DNA of 64,000 bases from positions 12,595-76,594 of the forward strand of contig JAJYAM010000001.1 of the NCBI GenBank assembly GCA_021779535.1, in the 5' to 3' direction. Source of the stretch: Pseudomonadota bacterium (lineage in GTDB: Bacteria; Pseudomonadota; Gammaproteobacteria; Steroidobacterales; Steroidobacteraceae). Both the position numbers and the translations under genes were made by a program. Positions within the stretch are counted from its first letter, which is position 1. Every line of letters begins with the position of its first letter. The notes beneath the pieces were generated by a model that was not told where the DNA came from, ran no database searches, and was given only the letters and a program-made list of their open reading frames with translations. Shown here in pieces: positions 695 through 41,534 of this stretch.

Positions 695-1651
695 ATGACG
701 AATCCAGCCAGCCCGCCGGCCGCACGGGGCTTCTTCAAGCGATTGGGCGAACGCCTGAGCACGGGATCCTCGCGGATCGCCGAGGGACTGAAGAGCATCC
801 TGCCGGGCCGCAAGATCGACGCCGAGGTGCTCGAAGAGCTCGAGGAACGCTTGATCGGCGCCGACGTCGGCGTCGAGGCGACCGCGCGGATCCTCGAGGA
901 TCTCGGCAGGCGCGTCGCGCGCAAGGAACTCGGCGACGTCGACGCGCTCGTCGGCGCACTGCGCCGCGCGATGCTCGAGATCCTCGCGCCGGTCGAGAAG
1001 CGGCTGCAGATCGGCGGTGCGAAGCCGTACGTGATCCTCGTCGTCGGGATCAACGGCGCGGGCAAGACGACCACGATCGGCAAGCTCGCGAATCGGCTGC
1101 GCACCGAAGGGCGCAGCGTGATGCTCGCGTCCGGCGACACCTTCCGCGCGGCCGCGCGCGAGCAGCTCGCGGTCTGGGCCGAGCGCAACGGGGTGCCGCT
1201 GATCGCGCAACAGGCCGGCGCGGAGCCCGCGGCGGTGATCTACGATGCGTTGCAGGCGGCGCGCGCCCGCGAGATCGACGTGCTGATCGCCGACACCGCC
1301 GGACGCCTGCACACCCAGTCGCACCTGATGGAAGAGCTGAAGAAGGTCAAGCGCGTGCTGTCGCGAATCGATCCCGGGGCGCCGCACGAGGTCCTGCTCG
1401 TGCTCGACGGCACGATCGGGCAGAACGCGCTCGCGCAGACCGCGGAATTCGACAGGAATCTGGGTGTGACCGGGCTCGTGATCACCAAGCTCGACGGCAC
1501 CGCGAAGGGCGGCGTGGTGCTCGCGATCGCGCAGAGATTCAAGATCCCGATCCGCTTCGTCGGCGTCGGCGAATCGCTGGAGGACTTCGGGGAATTCGAC
1601 GCGGCGGGCTTCGTCGACGCCCTGTTGCGGCCCGCGGGCGAGAGCGCATGA
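695..1651 (+). CDS. ftsY: signal recognition particle receptor FtsY
   Basis: 318 aa. GINGAGKTTTIGKL, DTAGRL, TKLDGTAKGG and the NG-domain layout. Confidence 0.95.
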   Translation: MTNPASPPAARGFFKRLGERLSTGSSRIAEGLKSILPGRKIDAEVLEELEERLIGADVGVEATARILEDLGRRVARKELGDVDALVGALRRAMLEILAPVEKRLQIGGAKPYVILVVGINGAGKTTTIGKLANRLRTEGRSVMLASGDTFRAAAREQLAVWAERNGVPLIAQQAGAEPAAVIYDALQAARAREIDVLIADTAGRLHTQSHLMEELKKVKRVLSRIDPGAPHEVLLVLDGTIGQNALAQTAEFDRNLGVTGLVITKLDGTAKGGVVLAIAQRFKIPIRFVGVGESLEDFGEFDAAGFVDALLRPAGESA

Positions 1652-34355: not shown

Positions 34356-34520
34356 ATGAAACTCCTGTGCGTGGCGGCCGCCGCCGCCTTGTTGACCGCC
34401 TGCGGCCAGCGCGGGCCGCTCGTGCTCCCCGACCGCAGCGCGCATCCCGCGGTCGTGACTCCCGCGCCCGCCGCCGCGGCGTCGGCCCCGTCCGCCGCGG
34501 GCGGCGCGCACGAGCCTTGA
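34356..34520 (+). CDS. lptM: small lipoprotein LptM (YifL/LppL family), 54 aa; not in the supplied ORF track
   Basis: My translation: MKLLCVAAAAALLTAC|GQRGPLVLP..., with lipobox LLTAC followed by the family signature C-G-x-(K/R)-G-P-L-x-L-P, then a Pro/Ala tail. Confidence 0.75.
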   Translation: MKLLCVAAAAALLTACGQRGPLVLPDRSAHPAVVTPAPAAAASAPSAAGGAHEP

Positions 34521-34546
34521 CGGCGTCGCGCGACGCAGGACCGACC

Positions 34547-37312
34547 GTGGCCGCGCCGAAACTCCTGCTCGTCGACGGATCCTCTTATCTGTATCGCGCA
34601 TTCCATGCGCTGCCGCCGCTCACGAACTCCCGCGGCGAGCCGACCGGTGCGGTGCTCGGCGTCGTGAACATGCTCAACAAGCTGATCAAGGATGAGAAGC
34701 CGGACCGGGTCGCGGTGGTCTTCGACGCGCCCGGCCGCACCTTCCGCGACGAGTTGTTCGAGCAATACAAGGCCCACCGGCCGCCGATGCCGGATGCGCT
34801 GCGCGCGCAGGTACAGCCACTCCTCGACGTCGTCGCGGCGATGGGTTTGCCGGTGCTGCGAATCCCGGGAGTCGAAGCCGACGACGTGATCGGTACGCTC
34901 GCGAAGCGCGCGGTCGCCGGCGGGTTCGTGGTGTCGATCTCCACCGGCGACAAGGACATCGCGCAACTCGTCGGCCCGAACATCGACCTCGTGAACACGA
35001 TGAGCGGCACGCGGCTCGACCCGGAAGGCGTCAAGGCGAAGTTCGACGTCCTCCCGGAACAGATGGTCGACTACCTCGCGCTGGTCGGCGATGCGTCCGA
35101 CAACATACCGGGCGTCTCCGGCGTCGGCCCGAAAACGGCCGCGAAATGGCTGGCGCAATACGGCTCGCTCGACGCGATCGTCGAACACGCCGGCGAGATC
35201 GCCGGCAAGGTCGGCGACAACCTGCGCGCCGAATTGCAGACGCTCGAGCTGTCGCGCCGGCTCGCGACGATCGTGACCGACGTGCCGATCGACGCGGGAC
35301 CGGAGACGCTGCGCGCGGCGCCACCGAATCGGGAGGCGCTGCGCGCGCTGTATGCGACGCTGGAATTCCGGTTGTTGCTGAAATCGCTCGACGACACCGG
35401 CGCGGTCGCGCCGGACCGCACCGCGGCCGCAGCCGCAACCGCAACCACCGTCGCGGCCACGGCCACGGCCACGGCCGCGCCGGCGCTCGGCGTGAGCGAC
35501 CTGCGACGATACGAGACCGTGACCGACCGGGCGGCGCTCGACGCCTGGCTCGCGAAGCTCGCGGTGGCGCCGCTGGTGTCCTTCGACACCGAGACCGACG
35601 ACCTGAACTATCTGCGGGCGCGGATCGTCGGCCTGTCCTTCGCGGTGACGCCGGGCGAAGCCGCGTACGTGCCGGTTGCTCACGACTACGTGGGGGCGCC
35701 CACGCAACTCGAGCGGGATGCGGTCCTCGGCGCGCTGCGGGCGTGGCTCGAGGATCCCGCGCGGGCGAAGGTCGGGCACCACCTGAAATACGACGCGCAC
35801 GTTCTGGCGAACCACGGCATCGCCCTCGCGGGCCAGCGGTACGACAGCATGCTCGAGTCGTACGTGCTGAACAGCACCGCGAGCCGTCACGACATGGACT
35901 CGGTCGCGGCGAAATATCTCGGGATCCGGACGATCCACTTCGAGGACGTCGCCGGCAAGGGGGCGAAGCAGATCAAGTTCAATCAGGTCGACGTGGCGCG
36001 CGCGGCCGAGTACGCCGCCGAGGACGCCGACGTGACCCTGCGATTGCATCGCGAGCTCTGGCCGCGAATCGAGGCGGTGCCCGCGCTGCGAACGCTCTAC
36101 GAAACGATCGAGCAGCCGCTCGTCGACGTGCTCTATCGCATGGAGCGCGCCGGCGTGCTGATCGACCCCGGCCGCCTGCGGACCCAGAGCGGCGAGCTCG
36201 CGCAGCGAATGGGCGAGGTGCAGCAAGCGGCGCACCGCGCGGCCGGCACGCCGTTCAATCTCGAATCGCCGAAGCAGCTCCAGGAGATCTTGTTCGGCCG
36301 GTTGGCGATTCCGCCGATGCGCAAGACGCCGACCGGCCAGCCGTCGACGGCGGAGGACGTGCTCGAGGAACTCGCGCTGGAGCACGAGCTGCCGCGCCTG
36401 ATTCTCGAGTATCGCGGCCTCGCGAAGCTCAAGTCGACGTACACCGACAAGCTGCCGGAGCAGATCGAGCCGTCGACCGGACGAATTCATACGTCCTATC
36501 ACCAGGCGGTCGCGGCGACCGGACGTCTGTCCTCGTCCGATCCGAACTTGCAGAACATCCCGATCCGGACGCCCGAAGGCCGCCGCATCCGTCGCGCATT
36601 CATCGCGCCGGAGGGCTTCGTGCTGGTCGCGGCGGACTATTCCCAGATCGAACTGAGAATCATGGCGCACCTGTCGGGCGATGCGGCCCTGCTGAGCGCG
36701 TTCGCGCAGGACCGGGACGTGCATCGCGCGACCGCGGCCGAAGTCCTCGGCCTGCCCGAGGATGCGGTCACCGCGGAGCAGCGCCGATCGGCGAAGGCGA
36801 TCAATTTCGGGCTGATCTACGGGATGTCGGCGTTCGGCCTCGCACGCCAGCTCGGGATCGGCCGCGCGGATGCGCAGGCCTACGTCGATCGATATTTCGA
36901 ACGGTATCCGGGCGTGAAGCGCTACATGGACGAGACGCGCGCACTCGCCCGCGAACGCGGATACGTCGAGACCGTGTTCGGTCGGCGCCTCTATCTGCCC
37001 GACATCCGTTCGAGCAATCCGTCGCAGCGGCAATATGCGGAACGCAGCGCGATCAACGCGCCGATGCAGGGAACCGCCGCCGACGTGATCAAGCGCGCGA
37101 TGATCGACGTCGACGCCTGGATCCGCCGGGAGCAGGTGCGCGCGCGCTTGATCATGCAAGTCCACGACGAACTCGTGCTCGAGGTCGCCGCGGACGCGGC
37201 CGACCCTGTCACGCAGGAACTGCGCGACCGGATGGCGGGCGCCGGCGGATCCTTGCGGGTCCCGCTCAAGGTCGACGTGGGCCGGGGCGACAACTGGGAC
37301 GAAGCGCACTGA
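34547..37312 (+). CDS. polA: DNA polymerase I
   Basis: 5'-nuclease N-terminus KLLLVDGSSYLYRAFHALP, 3'-5' exonuclease domain, and polymerase motifs DYSQIELRIMAH and QVHDELV. GTG at 34547 is the likely start within ORF 34367..37312. Confidence 0.95.
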   Translation: MAAPKLLLVDGSSYLYRAFHALPPLTNSRGEPTGAVLGVVNMLNKLIKDEKPDRVAVVFDAPGRTFRDELFEQYKAHRPPMPDALRAQVQPLLDVVAAMGLPVLRIPGVEADDVIGTLAKRAVAGGFVVSISTGDKDIAQLVGPNIDLVNTMSGTRLDPEGVKAKFDVLPEQMVDYLALVGDASDNIPGVSGVGPKTAAKWLAQYGSLDAIVEHAGEIAGKVGDNLRAELQTLELSRRLATIVTDVPIDAGPETLRAAPPNREALRALYATLEFRLLLKSLDDTGAVAPDRTAAAAATATTVAATATATAAPALGVSDLRRYETVTDRAALDAWLAKLAVAPLVSFDTETDDLNYLRARIVGLSFAVTPGEAAYVPVAHDYVGAPTQLERDAVLGALRAWLEDPARAKVGHHLKYDAHVLANHGIALAGQRYDSMLESYVLNSTASRHDMDSVAAKYLGIRTIHFEDVAGKGAKQIKFNQVDVARAAEYAAEDADVTLRLHRELWPRIEAVPALRTLYETIEQPLVDVLYRMERAGVLIDPGRLRTQSGELAQRMGEVQQAAHRAAGTPFNLESPKQLQEILFGRLAIPPMRKTPTGQPSTAEDVLEELALEHELPRLILEYRGLAKLKSTYTDKLPEQIEPSTGRIHTSYHQAVAATGRLSSSDPNLQNIPIRTPEGRRIRRAFIAPEGFVLVAADYSQIELRIMAHLSGDAALLSAFAQDRDVHRATAAEVLGLPEDAVTAEQRRSAKAINFGLIYGMSAFGLARQLGIGRADAQAYVDRYFERYPGVKRYMDETRALARERGYVETVFGRRLYLPDIRSSNPSQRQYAERSAINAPMQGTAADVIKRAMIDVDAWIRREQVRARLIMQVHDELVLEVAADAADPVTQELRDRMAGAGGSLRVPLKVDVGRGDNWDEAH

Positions 37313-37433
37313 GGTCCGTTCCCGCACCCCGCCGGTGGCGCGGCCGATCACCCGCGCCGCGGCTCGACATGGCGATAAAATTCTCGTTGTTTCATGAAGT
37401 TATATCGCGGGGCCGATCTTCTTCGAATCGCCC

Positions 37434-37461
37434 GGAACTTTCCCTGGGCGGCCCCCTCTAA
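37434..37461 (+). promoter_or_regulatory. sigma-E (RpoE/AlgU)-type promoter GGAACTT-N16-TCTAA
   Basis: GGAACTT 37434-37440, 16-nt spacer, TCTAA 37457-37461. It lies in the polA-engB intergenic region with no CDS downstream. Confidence 0.6.
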
Positions 37462-37467
37462 CTTCGT

Positions 37468-37584
37468 GAGCGACCCAATCGCTCCCCGCTCCTCTCCCTG
37501 AGCGGGTTGACCCGGTCTGTCATCCCCATGCCGGGTTGGTCTGCCCCGGTGGCTGCTTAACGGCGACCATCGGGGCTTTTTTTT
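37468..37584 (+). ncRNA. predicted about 117-nt sRNA at the polA-engB locus (positional equivalent of Spot42/ErsA)
   Basis: Bounded by the sigma-E promoter and an intrinsic terminator. Three perfect stem-loops: GAGCGA/TCGCTC 37468-37484; CCCGCTC/GAGCGGG 37485-37506 with loop CUCUCCCU; ACCCGG/CCGGGT 37510-37536 with a C-rich loop. Confidence 0.55.
37544..37584 (+). terminator. rho-independent terminator
   Basis: CCCCGGTGG (37544-52) pairs with CCATCGGGG (37567-75) with one G-U pair, followed by C and T8 (37577-84). Confidence 0.8.
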
Positions 37585-37593
37585 GCGCGTGGG

Positions 37594-38199
37594 TTACGCG
37601 GCGCCCTCGCCCTCGCCCTCGAGCCACTGCGAGAGCACGTCCCGCGCCGCGTCGATGCCCTGCCGCCCGTGAGCGGAGAACAGCTGCGCGCCGATGTCCG
37701 TGCCCGCGCATTCGGCCTGCGTCGCGCGCAACACCCGGATCGCCTCCTGACGGCCGAGCTTGTCGGCCTTGCTGAGCAGCACGTGCGCGCGCCGCCCACG
37801 CCCGAGCGCCCAGTTGAGCATCGCACGATCGAGCTCGCCGAGACCACGGCGCGCATCGACGATCAGCAGCAAACCGACCAGGGATTCCCGGCGCGCGAAG
37901 TAATCCCGCATCAACTCGTGCCAGCGGTCGCGCACCGCGGCGGGCACTTTCGCGAAACCGTAGCCCGGCAGATCCACGAGACGCCGGTCGGTCGCGAGTT
38001 CGAAGAAATTGATCAACTGGGTCCGGCCCGGCGTCCGACTCACCCGCGCGAGCCCCGACCGGCCCGTCACCGCGTTGATCGCGGTCGATTTACCCGCGTT
38101 CGAGCGCCCGGCGAACGCGACCTCGCGGCCGGTGTCGGCCACCAGCTGGCCGACACTCGCCGCACTTGTCAGGAATTTCACGTTCGCATAAGTCGACAT
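37594..38199 (-). CDS. engB: ribosome-biogenesis GTPase EngB/YihA
   Basis: 201 aa. GRSNAGKST, DLPGYG, SKADK. Confidence 0.9.
   Translation of the reverse strand: MSTYANVKFLTSAASVGQLVADTGREVAFAGRSNAGKSTAINAVTGRSGLARVSRTPGRTQLINFFELATDRRLVDLPGYGFAKVPAAVRDRWHELMRDYFARRESLVGLLLIVDARRGLGELDRAMLNWALGRGRRAHVLLSKADKLGRQEAIRVLRATQAECAGTDIGAQLFSAHGRQGIDAARDVLSQWLEGEGEGAA

Positions 38200-40842: not shown

Positions 40843-41534
<692 letters not shown>

What the first reader, a model, noticed from the sequence alone, without database searches (positions are those of the whole stretch)
37434..37584. Predicted sigma-E-dependent sRNA between polA and engB (locus of Spot42 in enterics and ErsA in Pseudomonas)
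The 281-nt polA-engB spacer has no ORF. It contains a near-consensus extracytoplasmic-stress promoter (GGAACTT-N16-TCTAA, 37434-37461). About 7 nt downstream begin three perfect stem-loops, followed by a strong intrinsic terminator with T8 (37544-37584). This defines a transcript of about 117 nt. Two loops are pyrimidine/C-rich (CUCUCCCU; UCUGUCAUCCCCAUG), which suits pairing with purine-rich Shine-Dalgarno regions. In E. coli this intergenic position carries spf (Spot42). In P. aeruginosa it carries ErsA, which I recall is AlgU/sigma-22-dependent. The flanking synteny here (polA / engB / cytochrome c4 / dsbA) is the Pseudomonas one.
Basis: partly seen in the sequence, partly recalled or inferred. 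Interest (0 to 1): 0.6.

Follow-up and report, generated by a model that had tools for sequence, protein, structure and literature searches.

The report
Envelope-stress small RNA beside polA
The gap between the polA and engB genes holds a real, strongly conserved gene for a roughly 118-base regulatory RNA that seems to be switched on by the cell-envelope stress factor sigma-E; it belongs to an already catalogued but functionally unexplained RNA family (anti-hemB/ncS04), and that family now appears to include the Xanthomonas virulence regulator sX13.

Summary
GGAACTT-N16-TCTAA lies at 37434-37461. Three perfect hairpins and a terminator with T8 follow (37468-37584).

The RNA is real. It is present in 22 of 24 same-genus genomes, 90 of 151 genomes of the order and 46 of 151 families of the class. 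33 of its 36 base pairs show compensatory changes.

Conservation starts exactly at the -35 element. The promoter hexamers are invariant while the spacer varies. The same motif precedes the genome's own rpoE-rseA-rseB operon and sits upstream of bepA-like and rseP genes.

No Spot_42 or ErsA-like Rfam match was found. The closest family is Rfam anti-hemB (RF02837; 47.0 bits against a cut-off of 49.5, E 5e-10). In Burkholderia cenocepacia this family is ncS04, which is expressed and binds Hfq. A broader model built here also detects sX13 of Xanthomonadaceae (38.7 bits).

Two loops are invariant across the class: CCUCCCU, which resembles the ribosome's anti-Shine-Dalgarno sequence, and CCCC. I infer a sigma-E-induced, trans-acting RNA that pairs with G-rich ribosome-binding sites. 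Targets are unknown, and my target scan was uninformative.

It is a new member of a known family. Sigma-E control and the sX13 link appear unreported in the searchable literature. No expression data could be obtained.

The parts
37434..37440 (+). -35 element GGAACTT of a sigma-E (RpoE/AlgU) type promoter
   Evidence: Read. Invariant in all 24 aligned relatives while the 16-nt spacer varies. Present at the same offset in 71 of 113 family loci.
37457..37461 (+). -10 element TCTAA, 16 nt after the -35 element
   Evidence: The genome's own rpoE has GAACTTT-N16-TCTAT.
37467..37584 (+). Predicted primary transcript of about 118 nt. The start is inferred to lie 6-7 nt after the -10 element; the 3' end is taken at the end of the T8 run.
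   Evidence: Covariance model R1 matches full length here and in relatives. Fold z = -5.5. The start is inferred, not mapped.
37468..37484 (+). Stem-loop 1 (6 bp, loop CCCAA). The sequence is variable but the pairing is kept.
   Evidence: All 6 pairs show compensatory changes across the order (helix 1).
37485..37506 (+). Stem-loop 2 (7 bp). Loop CUCUCCCU at 37492-37499 carries the family-invariant C-rich motif (CCUCCCU in most members). Candidate seed against Shine-Dalgarno or G-rich sites.
   Evidence: Loop letters are invariant across genus, order and class alignments. 5 of 7 pairs covary.
37510..37536 (+). Stem-loop 3 (6 perfect bp, extendable). The 15-nt loop contains the invariant CCCC (37524-37527). 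Second candidate seed.
   Evidence: All 9 modelled pairs covary (helix 4).
37543..37584 (+). Intrinsic terminator: a 10-bp GC-rich stem with an inner 4-bp stem, then T8. It ends 10 nt from the engB stop codon on the other strand.
   Evidence: 9 of 10 stem pairs covary (helix 5).
34367..37312 (+). polA, upstream neighbour on the same strand. The true start is probably about 60 codons inside this frame.
   Evidence: NCBIfam PRK05755, 1200 bits, aligned from residue 65.
37594..38199 (-). engB/yihA, convergent neighbour. It is the commonest neighbour of this RNA family in both gamma and beta lineages, although Comamonadaceae members lack it.
   Evidence: TIGR03598, 207 bits. tblastn of the flanks in 35 order loci and 80 named loci.

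Best explanation
The spacer carries a stand-alone gene for a trans-acting small regulatory RNA of about 118 nt. RNA polymerase carrying the envelope-stress sigma factor RpoE (sigma-E, the AlgU/sigma-22 type) starts transcription about 6-7 nt after TCTAA. The transcript folds into three short hairpins and ends at a strong intrinsic terminator with a U8 tail.

Two apical loops present C-rich single strands (CUCUCCCU and ...AUCCCCAUG) that are conserved from this genus out to Betaproteobacteria. I infer that these loops pair with G-rich stretches, chiefly Shine-Dalgarno regions (AGGGAGG or GGGG), of several mRNAs and lower their translation. Envelope stress would thereby be converted into post-transcriptional repression.

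In evolutionary terms the RNA belongs to the anti-hemB (RF02837)/ncS04 family and is a distant relative of sX13.

Shown here: the gene, its structure, its conservation, the promoter motif and that motif's association with rpoE.
Inferred: sigma-E dependence, the transcription start, the pairing mechanism and any role of Hfq.
For: Real RNA gene:
- blastn finds it in 22 of 24 same-genus genomes.
- Model R1 finds one full-length copy in 90 of 151 genomes of the order and in 46 of 151 families of the class.
- On 34 distinct sequences, 92.9% of cells are paired against 30-45% when partners are slid. 33 of 36 pairs carry double changes, and 0 of 500 shuffles reach this.

Own promoter:
- Similarity to relatives starts at window 37431-37434, which is the -35 element. 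The 120 nt upstream, after polA, is unconserved.
- GGAACTTT and TCTAA are invariant while the 16-nt spacer is free.
- 71 of 113 loci have a strong match at the same offset.
- In Betaproteobacteria the RNA keeps this promoter although polA is not the upstream gene, so it is not merely a polA 3' UTR.

Sigma-E assignment:
- The genome has a bona fide rpoE (TIGR02939, 305.7 bits against a cut-off of 236) followed by rseA and rseB.
- rpoE is preceded by GAACTTT-N16-TCTAT.
- The relaxed motif also lies upstream of a bepA-like protease gene and rseP. From my knowledge of the E. coli regulon, both are classical sigma-E regulon members.

Family:
- RF02837 scores 47.0 bits, E 4.9e-10, full length.
- Two genomes of the same family exceed the cut-off (56.2 and 53.1 bits). 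A Paraburkholderia RNA scoring 83.5 bits to RF02837 is also found by R1.
- B. cenocepacia ncS04 is this family. It is 105 nt, was detected by TSS mapping and northern blot, and co-purifies with Hfq (PMC5688073, PMC4603805).
- In the Paraburkholderia orthologue, a start 6-8 nt after the -10 element gives 105-107 nt.

Mechanism by analogy:
- sX13 acts through C-rich loops on G-rich mRNA motifs (PMC3771888).
- The broad model R2 scores a true sX13 at 38.7 bits, E about 1e-7.
- Hfq is encoded in this genome.
Against:
- In B. cenocepacia, ncS04 levels did not change significantly in biofilm, stationary phase, starvation, osmotic stress, low pH or low iron (Table 2 of PMC5688073). That does not look like a strongly inducible stress RNA, although no classical sigma-E inducer was tested.
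- The genome has five further ECF-type sigma paralogues, and related ECF factors can read similar motifs.
- In some lineages the promoter is replaced by a sigma-70-like one: Comamonadaceae and one family of the order. Sigma-E control is therefore not universal in the family.
- My duplex-energy target scan over 3336 crude gene starts found nothing beyond what shuffled loops give, and no enrichment of signal-peptide proteins.
- sX13 works without Hfq, whereas ncS04 binds Hfq. The chaperone requirement here is open.
Confidence: 0.72

Rival explanations
1. The structured region is only the 3' untranslated tail and terminator of polA. Any small RNA arises by read-through and processing, independent of sigma-E.
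For: No intrinsic terminator is visible between the polA stop (37312) and the hairpins. polA transcripts probably do run into this terminator, so a processed 3'-UTR species could coexist with the primary transcript.
Against: Conservation begins at the -35 element and not at the polA stop. The promoter hexamers are invariant at a fixed distance from SL1. In Betaproteobacteria the same RNA with the same promoter lies next to a different upstream gene on the other strand. A primary transcription start was reported for ncS04 in B. cenocepacia.
Confidence: 0.05
2. It is a cis-acting antisense or leader element that controls heme synthesis (hemB). This is what the family name implies, and a 2026 preprint proposed it.
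For: In many Betaproteobacteria the motif lies next to hemB (Weinberg 2007, PMC1950547; preprint 10.64898/2026.09.01.748597).
Against: Here hemB is on another contig (C65:26679-27641), and polA occupies the neighbouring position. The neighbour shared across most gamma and beta lineages is engB, not hemB. Predicted pairing of the loops with the hemB start region is unremarkable: -10.2 kcal/mol for loop A against a genome mean of -9.4, and about 2 sd below the genome mean for loop B. Weinberg 2007 already judged the terminator-bearing strand to be a non-coding RNA.
Confidence: 0.04
3. It is a genuine small RNA, but the promoter is read by a different ECF sigma factor, or is effectively constitutive, rather than by the RpoE envelope-stress factor.
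For: There are five additional ECF-like sigma genes in the genome. ncS04 was not significantly regulated in seven conditions. sX13 is described as constitutively expressed. Some lineages have swapped in sigma-70-type promoters.
Against: The motif matches the one in front of the rpoE-rseA-rseB operon of the same genome. It also resembles those upstream of the bepA-like gene and rseP. GGAACTT-N16-TCTAA is, from my knowledge, the RpoE/AlgU group consensus. ErsA, at the same position in Pseudomonas, is experimentally sigma-22 dependent.
Confidence: 0.15
4. The RNA does not act by pairing with specific mRNAs. It acts as a decoy: its anti-Shine-Dalgarno-like loop titrates a G-rich RNA or an RNA-binding protein, or competes with 16S rRNA in a general way.
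For: The invariant loop CCUCCCU contains the CCUCC core of the 16S anti-SD (my knowledge). It is conserved over a very wide taxonomic range in which individual target sites would be expected to drift. No specific target stands out in my scan. The sX13 authors left open whether the 4G motif binds RNA, protein or the ribosome.
Against: sX13 loop mutations and compensatory target mutations point to direct pairing for at least some targets (PMC3771888). ncS04 binds Hfq, which is typical of pairing RNAs.
Confidence: 0.1

Closest known systems
anti-hemB RNA (Rfam RF02837, 'Burkholderia RNA 7'), which is ncS04 of Burkholderia cenocepacia J2315
   Same: It is the best Rfam match: 47.0 bits, E 4.9e-10, all 81 model positions. 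The shared features are the SL2 with its CCUCCCU-type loop, the SL3, the terminator, the convergent position at the 3' end of engB with cytochrome c4 beyond, and a sigma-E-like promoter in Paraburkholderia, Pandoraea, Cupriavidus, Dechloromonas and others. A chain of homologues links the two.
   Different: The score is 2.5 bits below Rfam's cut-off. The upstream neighbour is polA on the same strand instead of a divergent hemB. The Rfam model lacks SL1, which is conserved as a structure here. The host is a gammaproteobacterium whose nearest named relatives are Steroidobacteraceae MAGs, not a betaproteobacterium.
sX13 of Xanthomonadaceae (Rfam RF02232)
   Same: It lies downstream of polA, is about 115 nt long, and has hairpins with C-rich apical loops and a GC-rich terminator. 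It is experimentally a trans-acting regulator that uses C-rich loops against G-rich mRNA motifs. Cross-detection supports a relationship: the sX13 model finds members of this family at 30-38 bits, R1 finds a true sX13 at 20.4 bits, and the broader R2 finds it at 38.7 bits.
   Different: RF02232 scores only 19.5 bits here and finds nothing in 151 genomes of the order. The one sX13 locus I examined has no GGAACTT-N16-TCTAA and no engB nearby. sX13 is reported as constitutive and Hfq-independent.
ErsA of Pseudomonas aeruginosa
   Same: It occupies the same polA-engB spacer, is transcribed by the envelope-stress sigma factor AlgU/sigma-22, has three stem-loops, and is Hfq-assisted (PMC8575079, PMC8395346).
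   Different: ErsA pairs through a U-rich unstructured domain between SL1 and SL2. This RNA has no such domain, and its conserved single strands are C-rich loops. I could not test sequence homology because I had no ErsA sequence or model.
Spot 42 (spf) of Enterobacterales and Vibrionales (Rfam RF00021)
   Same: It has the same position: polA, then spf, then a convergent yihA/engB in E. coli K-12. Its length is similar and its terminator is GC-rich.
   Different: There is no RF00021 match in the spacer at E up to 10 or in the genome. R1 and R2 score the E. coli spf at only 11.1 and 20.5 bits, with SL2 skipped and the terminator carrying the score. From my knowledge, spf has a CRP-repressed sigma-70 promoter. 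It also encodes the small protein SpfP, whereas this RNA has no conserved reading frame.
Sigma-E-dependent small RNAs of enterics and Vibrio (MicA, RybB, MicL, VrrA)
   Same: They have the same regulatory logic as proposed here: a sigma-E promoter drives a short Hfq-type RNA that damps synthesis of envelope proteins (my knowledge of the E. coli system).
   Different: There is no sequence or structural relationship and no Rfam hit. Their seeds are 5'-terminal single strands, not apical C-rich loops. Outer-membrane protein targets are not shown here.
alpha-r7 / Atu_C7 small RNAs of Rhizobiales (RF02501)
   Same: They are also encoded next to polA and have three hairpins with C-rich loops, as the sX13 authors noted. 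A true sX13 locus hits RF02501 at 33.6 bits, E 5e-4.
   Different: RF02501 gives no hit on this window's RNA at E up to 10. Any relationship would be indirect, through sX13.

Membership tests
anti-hemB (Rfam RF02837) | Covariance-model score at or above the curated gathering score (49.5 bits) | tested here: not met
   47.0 bits, E 4.9e-10, model positions 1-81 of 81. Relatives in the order score 35-48 bits. Two genomes of the same family score 56.2 and 53.1, above the cut-off. This is an operational threshold missed by 2.5 bits. Homology is supported by the E-value and by the chain of intermediates.
anti-hemB (Rfam RF02837) | Hairpin with the conserved C-rich loop (CCUCCCU flanked by CCCGCU/GAGCGGG), followed by a second hairpin and a terminator with a U-run | tested here: met
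   The exact pattern CCCGCT-N3-4-CTCCCTGAGCGGG is shared with Paraburkholderia, Cupriavidus, Variovorax, Dechloromonas and others.
anti-hemB (Rfam RF02837) | Location beside hemB, on the strand antisense to it | tested here: not met
   hemB is on contig C65. polA is the neighbour here. The literature already reports members decoupled from hemB.
anti-hemB (Rfam RF02837) | 3' end convergent with engB, with cytochrome c4 beyond it | tested here: met
   engB plus cytochrome c4 flank the RNA in most order loci and in Rhodocyclaceae, Burkholderiaceae and Gallionellaceae loci. Comamonadaceae loci lack them.
sX13 (Rfam RF02232) | Covariance-model score at or above 50 bits | tested here: not met
   19.5 bits, E 0.15 on a 401-nt search. 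0 of 151 genomes of the order match.
sX13 (Rfam RF02232) | Gene downstream of polA, with apical C-rich (4C/5C) loops | tested here: met
   The remote homology signal is R2 against a true sX13 at 38.7 bits.
ErsA (Pseudomonas) | Position in the polA-engB spacer and an AlgU/sigma-22 (sigma-E type) promoter | tested here: met
   Position, promoter motif. Promoter activity here is inferred, not measured.
ErsA (Pseudomonas) | Sequence or structure homology to ErsA | not testable with these tools
   I had no ErsA sequence or model. No Rfam family of that name appeared among the matches at E up to 10.
ErsA (Pseudomonas) | U-rich unstructured seed domain between SL1 and SL2 | tested here: not met
   SL1 and SL2 abut with no spacer (37484/37485). 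The fold shows no U-rich single strand other than the terminator tail.
Spot 42 (Rfam RF00021) | Covariance-model match at or above 80 bits | tested here: not met
   No match at E up to 10 in the spacer. No match in the genome, while the E. coli control rings.
Sigma-E regulon promoters | GGAACTT-N16-TCNAA-type motif shared with the autoregulated rpoE promoter of the same genome | tested here: met
   rpoE has GAACTTT-N16-TCTAT upstream of rpoE-rseA-rseB. Similar motifs lie upstream of the bepA-like gene and rseP.
Sigma-E regulon promoters | Transcription depends on RpoE in vivo or in vitro | not testable with these tools
   This needs experiments.

The most novel reading that the evidence does not exclude
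The small RNAs encoded at the polA/engB junction throughout Proteobacteria may be diverged descendants of one ancient gene. They are anti-hemB/ncS04 in Betaproteobacteria, this RNA in Steroidobacteraceae-like and many other gamma lineages, sX13 in Xanthomonadaceae, and possibly ErsA in Pseudomonas, Spot 42 in enterics and alpha-r7 in Rhizobiales. The ancestral form would have been a sigma-E-controlled RNA with anti-Shine-Dalgarno-like C-rich loops. Later lineages would have swapped the promoter (sigma-70 in Comamonadaceae, CRP control in enterics) and the seed (U-rich in ErsA).
Probability: 0.3. Interest if true: 0.75.

Novelty: new member of a known kind. Interest (0 to 1): 0.5.

Why it matters
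Anti-hemB has been catalogued since 2007, and in Burkholderia it is known to be expressed and to bind Hfq. It still has no known regulator, target or function, and its name steers people towards heme synthesis.

Three testable leads come out of this locus and its relatives:
1. A conserved sigma-E-type promoter places the RNA in the envelope-stress response.
2. The commonest neighbour is engB, not hemB, and hemB can be unlinked. That argues against a cis role in heme synthesis.
3. The family reaches far beyond Betaproteobacteria, to roughly 30% of sampled families of the class, and connects to sX13, whose C-rich loops are experimentally shown to act on G-rich mRNA motifs.

If these hold, knowledge from sX13 and ErsA can be transferred to a very widespread orphan RNA. 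The long-noted puzzle of a 'small RNA next to polA' would then gain an evolutionary explanation.

Tried and rejected
- Rfam at gathering thresholds found nothing in the spacer, only a tRNA elsewhere in the window.
- Spot_42 gave no match in the spacer, the genome or 151 class genomes, while the E. coli control was positive. Scoring the E. coli spf locus with my models gave 11.1 and 20.5 bits. The terminator carries those scores, so I treat them as inconclusive.
- sX13 was not found in 151 genomes of the order.
- I ran a target prediction. Crude gene calling by GC3 gave 3336 starts. I then computed duplex energies of the two loops against -45..+24 of each start. Shuffled loops gave equal or better energies. 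The top 25 hits showed no excess of signal-peptide proteins (8-12% against 8.5% background). I rejected this scan as uninformative in a 70% GC genome.
- Pairing with the hemB start region is unremarkable.
- The only AUG in the RNA (37528) would give a 10-codon frame. It has no Shine-Dalgarno sequence, and neither the AUG nor the stop is conserved in relatives, so a dual-function small ORF is rejected.
- The simple terminator and sigma-70 scanners found nothing in the spacer, which is a limit of their patterns.
- Literature searches found no paper in the held library that links anti-hemB/ncS04 to RpoE or to sX13. Subscription journals were not covered.
- I could not name the exact taxon. The nearest named loci are MAGs labelled Steroidobacteraceae, with PolA 64-72% identical.
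Full report
**What is in the sequence**

polA ends at 37312 on the + strand and engB/yihA runs 37594-38199 on the - strand (NCBIfam). The 281-nt spacer therefore lies between convergent genes. Beyond engB come a dihaem cytochrome c and a DsbA-like protein.

- GGAACTT at 37434-37440, a 16-nt spacer, and TCTAA at 37457-37461.
- Three perfect hairpins at 37468-37484, 37485-37506 and 37510-37536.
- A GC-rich terminator at 37543-37576, followed by T8.

The 118-nt RNA folds into exactly these four hairpins (-60.3 kcal/mol, z = -5.5; no shuffle folds as well). The strict promoter pattern occurs three times in the 2.93-Mb genome against 0.5 expected.

**Is it a real RNA gene?**

blastn finds the element in 22 of 24 genomes of the same genus. 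The two genomes without it are 81% and 58% complete. It is single copy in this genome.

In the alignment of 24 relatives, similarity begins at the -35 element. The 120 nt between the polA stop and the promoter are not conserved.

A covariance model built from the genus (R1) finds one full-length copy in 90 of 151 genomes of the order. It also finds the RNA in 46 of 151 families sampled across the class.

On 34 distinct sequences from the order, 92.9% of cells form standard pairs, against 30-45% when the partners are slid. 33 of 36 pairs show changes on both sides, and none of 500 shuffles reaches the observed values. That alignment was fitted to the model, which favours the structure. The independent MAFFT/RNAalifold analysis of the genus gives the same four helices, with compensatory changes in SL1, SL2 and the terminator.

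The loop of SL2 (CCUCCCU in most members, CUCUCCCU here) and CCCC in the loop of SL3 are invariant from genus to class. The stems vary freely.

**Promoter**

GGAACTTT and TCTAA are invariant in the genus while the spacer letters vary. I examined 113 distinct family loci (order sample plus named genomes):
- 71 have a strong sigma-E-like match at the same offset from SL1.
- 8 have a weak match.
- 13 carry a sigma-70-like TTGAAA-N17-TAAATT instead. These are mainly Comamonadaceae; one family of the order has TTGAAC-N17-CATAAT but fell below this tally's score cut-off.
- 21 could not be classified by my simple rule.

The genome encodes a genuine RpoE (TIGR02939, 305.7 bits against a cut-off of 236), followed by RseA and RseB homologues. 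Upstream of rpoE lies GAACTTT-N16-TCTAT.

Relaxed versions of the motif also precede a BepA-like protease gene and rseP. From my knowledge of the E. coli regulon, both are classical sigma-E members. The strict motif also sits about 70 nt upstream of a mannose-1-phosphate guanylyltransferase-like gene.

This makes RpoE the most likely reader of the promoter, but it is an inference. Five other ECF-like sigma genes exist in the genome.

**What family is it?**

At gathering thresholds Rfam reports nothing in the spacer. With E-value thresholds the best match is anti-hemB (RF02837): 47.0 bits against a cut-off of 49.5, E 4.9e-10, covering the whole model, which starts at SL2. sX13 is a distant second (19.5 bits), and no Spot_42 match appears.

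Relatives in the order score 35-48 bits to anti-hemB. Two genomes of the same family pass the cut-off (56.2 and 53.1 bits). A Paraburkholderia RNA scores 83.5 bits to RF02837 and is also found by R1. The lineage thus straddles Rfam's threshold and belongs to the same evolutionary family.

A pattern scan of named genomes found the SL2 core in two groups:
- Gammaproteobacteria: Steroidobacteraceae MAGs (the closest to the window, with PolA 64-72% identical), Rudaea and Immundisolibacter.
- Betaproteobacteria: Variovorax, Hydrogenophaga, Polaromonas, Cupriavidus, Paraburkholderia, Caballeronia, Pandoraea, Dechloromonas, Azoarcus, Methylophilaceae, Gallionellaceae and MAGs labelled Bordetella.

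**What the literature says about the family**

Weinberg et al. (2007) proposed that the terminator-bearing strand is a non-coding RNA (PMC1950547).

In B. cenocepacia J2315 the RNA is ncS04. It is 105 nt, lies between BCAL0264 and BCAL0265 in the arrangement '<- -> <-', is detected on northern blots and co-purifies with Hfq. It was unchanged in seven tested conditions (PMC4603805, PMC5688073).

In the Paraburkholderia orthologue, a start 6-8 nt after the -10 box gives 105-107 nt. This is consistent with ncS04's mapped length, although the species differs.

A 2026 preprint associates the family with low-salinity isolates and suggests antisense control of hemB. I found no paper in the held library that links the family to RpoE or to sX13.

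**Genomic context**

In most genomes of the order the arrangement is polA >, RNA >, < engB, cytochrome c4 >. In Rhodocyclaceae, Burkholderiaceae, Gallionellaceae and others, engB and cytochrome c4 are kept but polA is not adjacent. In Comamonadaceae neither is nearby.

The constant partner is therefore engB. In this genome hemB is on another contig, which rules out a cis effect on hemB here. The terminator ends 10 nt from the engB stop codon. On the engB strand the hairpin is preceded by A8 but not followed by a U-run, so at best it is a weak terminator for engB.

**Relation to sX13, ErsA and Spot 42**

The sX13 model finds nothing in the order. In the class sample it finds one true sX13 (103 bits) and nine sub-threshold hits of 30-38 bits. 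At least six of the nine are members of the present family, downstream of polA or beside engB, and three of those loci carry tandem pairs.

R1 scores the true sX13 at 20.4 bits. A broader model (R2, 89 sequences) scores it at 38.7 bits, E about 1e-7 with rough calibration, aligned end to end. I read this as remote homology. The sX13 authors had described sX13 as confined to Xanthomonadaceae, and they asked whether the polA locus of other bacteria also encodes small RNAs (PMC3771888).

The E. coli spf locus scores only 11.1 bits with R1 and 20.5 bits with R2. SL2 is skipped and the terminator carries the score, so the result is inconclusive.

ErsA shares the position and the sigma-22 promoter. 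It uses a U-rich single-stranded seed that is absent here, and I had no ErsA sequence to test.

**How it probably works**

RpoE-dependent transcription would raise the RNA under envelope stress. The two invariant C-rich loops are the only conserved single strands, so they are the likely seeds.

CCUCCCU is complementary to AGGGAGG and contains the CCUCC core of the 16S anti-Shine-Dalgarno sequence (my knowledge). Pairing at ribosome-binding sites and translational repression is therefore the most economical model, and it is what was shown for the C-rich loops of sX13.

Hfq is present and binds the Burkholderia homologue, but sX13 does not need it.

My attempt to predict targets failed. In this 70% GC genome, shuffled loops pair as well as the real ones, and the top hits are not enriched for exported proteins. 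The targets remain unknown.

**Verdict**

The RNA is not new in kind: it is a twilight member of a catalogued family.

Two things appear new relative to the searchable literature. One is the conserved sigma-E-type promoter of this family. The other is its extension across many gammaproteobacterial families, with a link to sX13. Both are computational inferences that need the experiments listed above.

Noticed in passing
L196:1203-1315(-) and 1499-1613(-); L201:1495-1621 and 1734-1873; L202:1490-1628 and 1674-1807: In several other families of the class the RNA gene is tandemly duplicated. In each copy whose upstream sequence I examined there is a sigma-E-like promoter. G320 and L209 (1501-1622 and 1717-1822, both -) also show two adjacent hits.
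   Followed up: partly
L049, L052, L057 (one family of the order); L092, L093, L097, L098, L101 and other Comamonadaceae loci: The promoter has been replaced. The RNA is kept, but GGAACTT-N16-TCTAA gives way to sigma-70-like TTGAAC-N17-CATAAT or TTGAAA-N17-TAAATT. In Comamonadaceae the engB/cytochrome c4 context is lost as well.
   Followed up: partly
L194:1499-1630(-): A true sX13 locus (103 bits to RF02232) also matches the Rhizobiales family Atu_C7 (RF02501) at 33.6 bits, E 5e-4. This hints at a link between sX13 and the alpha-proteobacterial polA-locus RNAs.
   Followed up: no
many family members, e.g. L042, L044, L053, L056, L059, L196: In many relatives the apical loop of the terminator also carries CCCC(C)U, giving a third C-rich loop. 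In this window that loop is UUAA.
   Followed up: no
G000:C65:70387(-) and G000:C82:5342(+); outside the window: Sigma-E-like promoter motifs sit in front of a mannose-1-phosphate guanylyltransferase-like gene and a BepA-like M48 protease gene. In the latter the -10 box ends only 9 nt before the ATG, so that mRNA may be nearly leaderless.
   Followed up: partly
window 37375-37407: An AT-rich patch (ATAAAATTCTCGTTGTTTCATGAAGTTATATCG) lies just upstream of the -35 element in an otherwise 70% GC region. It could be an UP-like element or a regulator site. It is not conserved in sequence, although relatives are also A/T-rich at this position.
   Followed up: no
window 34367-34560: The longest polA frame starts about 64 codons before the region that aligns to the DNA polymerase I models, so the real start codon is probably further downstream.
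   Followed up: no
G000:C34:14901-14965(-); outside the window: There is a second, weak anti-hemB match in the genome (22.6 bits, E 0.007). It is probably only a terminator-like hairpin.
   Followed up: no
window 40847-40920 (-): A tRNA gene is the only Rfam match at gathering score in the 64-kb window.
   Followed up: no
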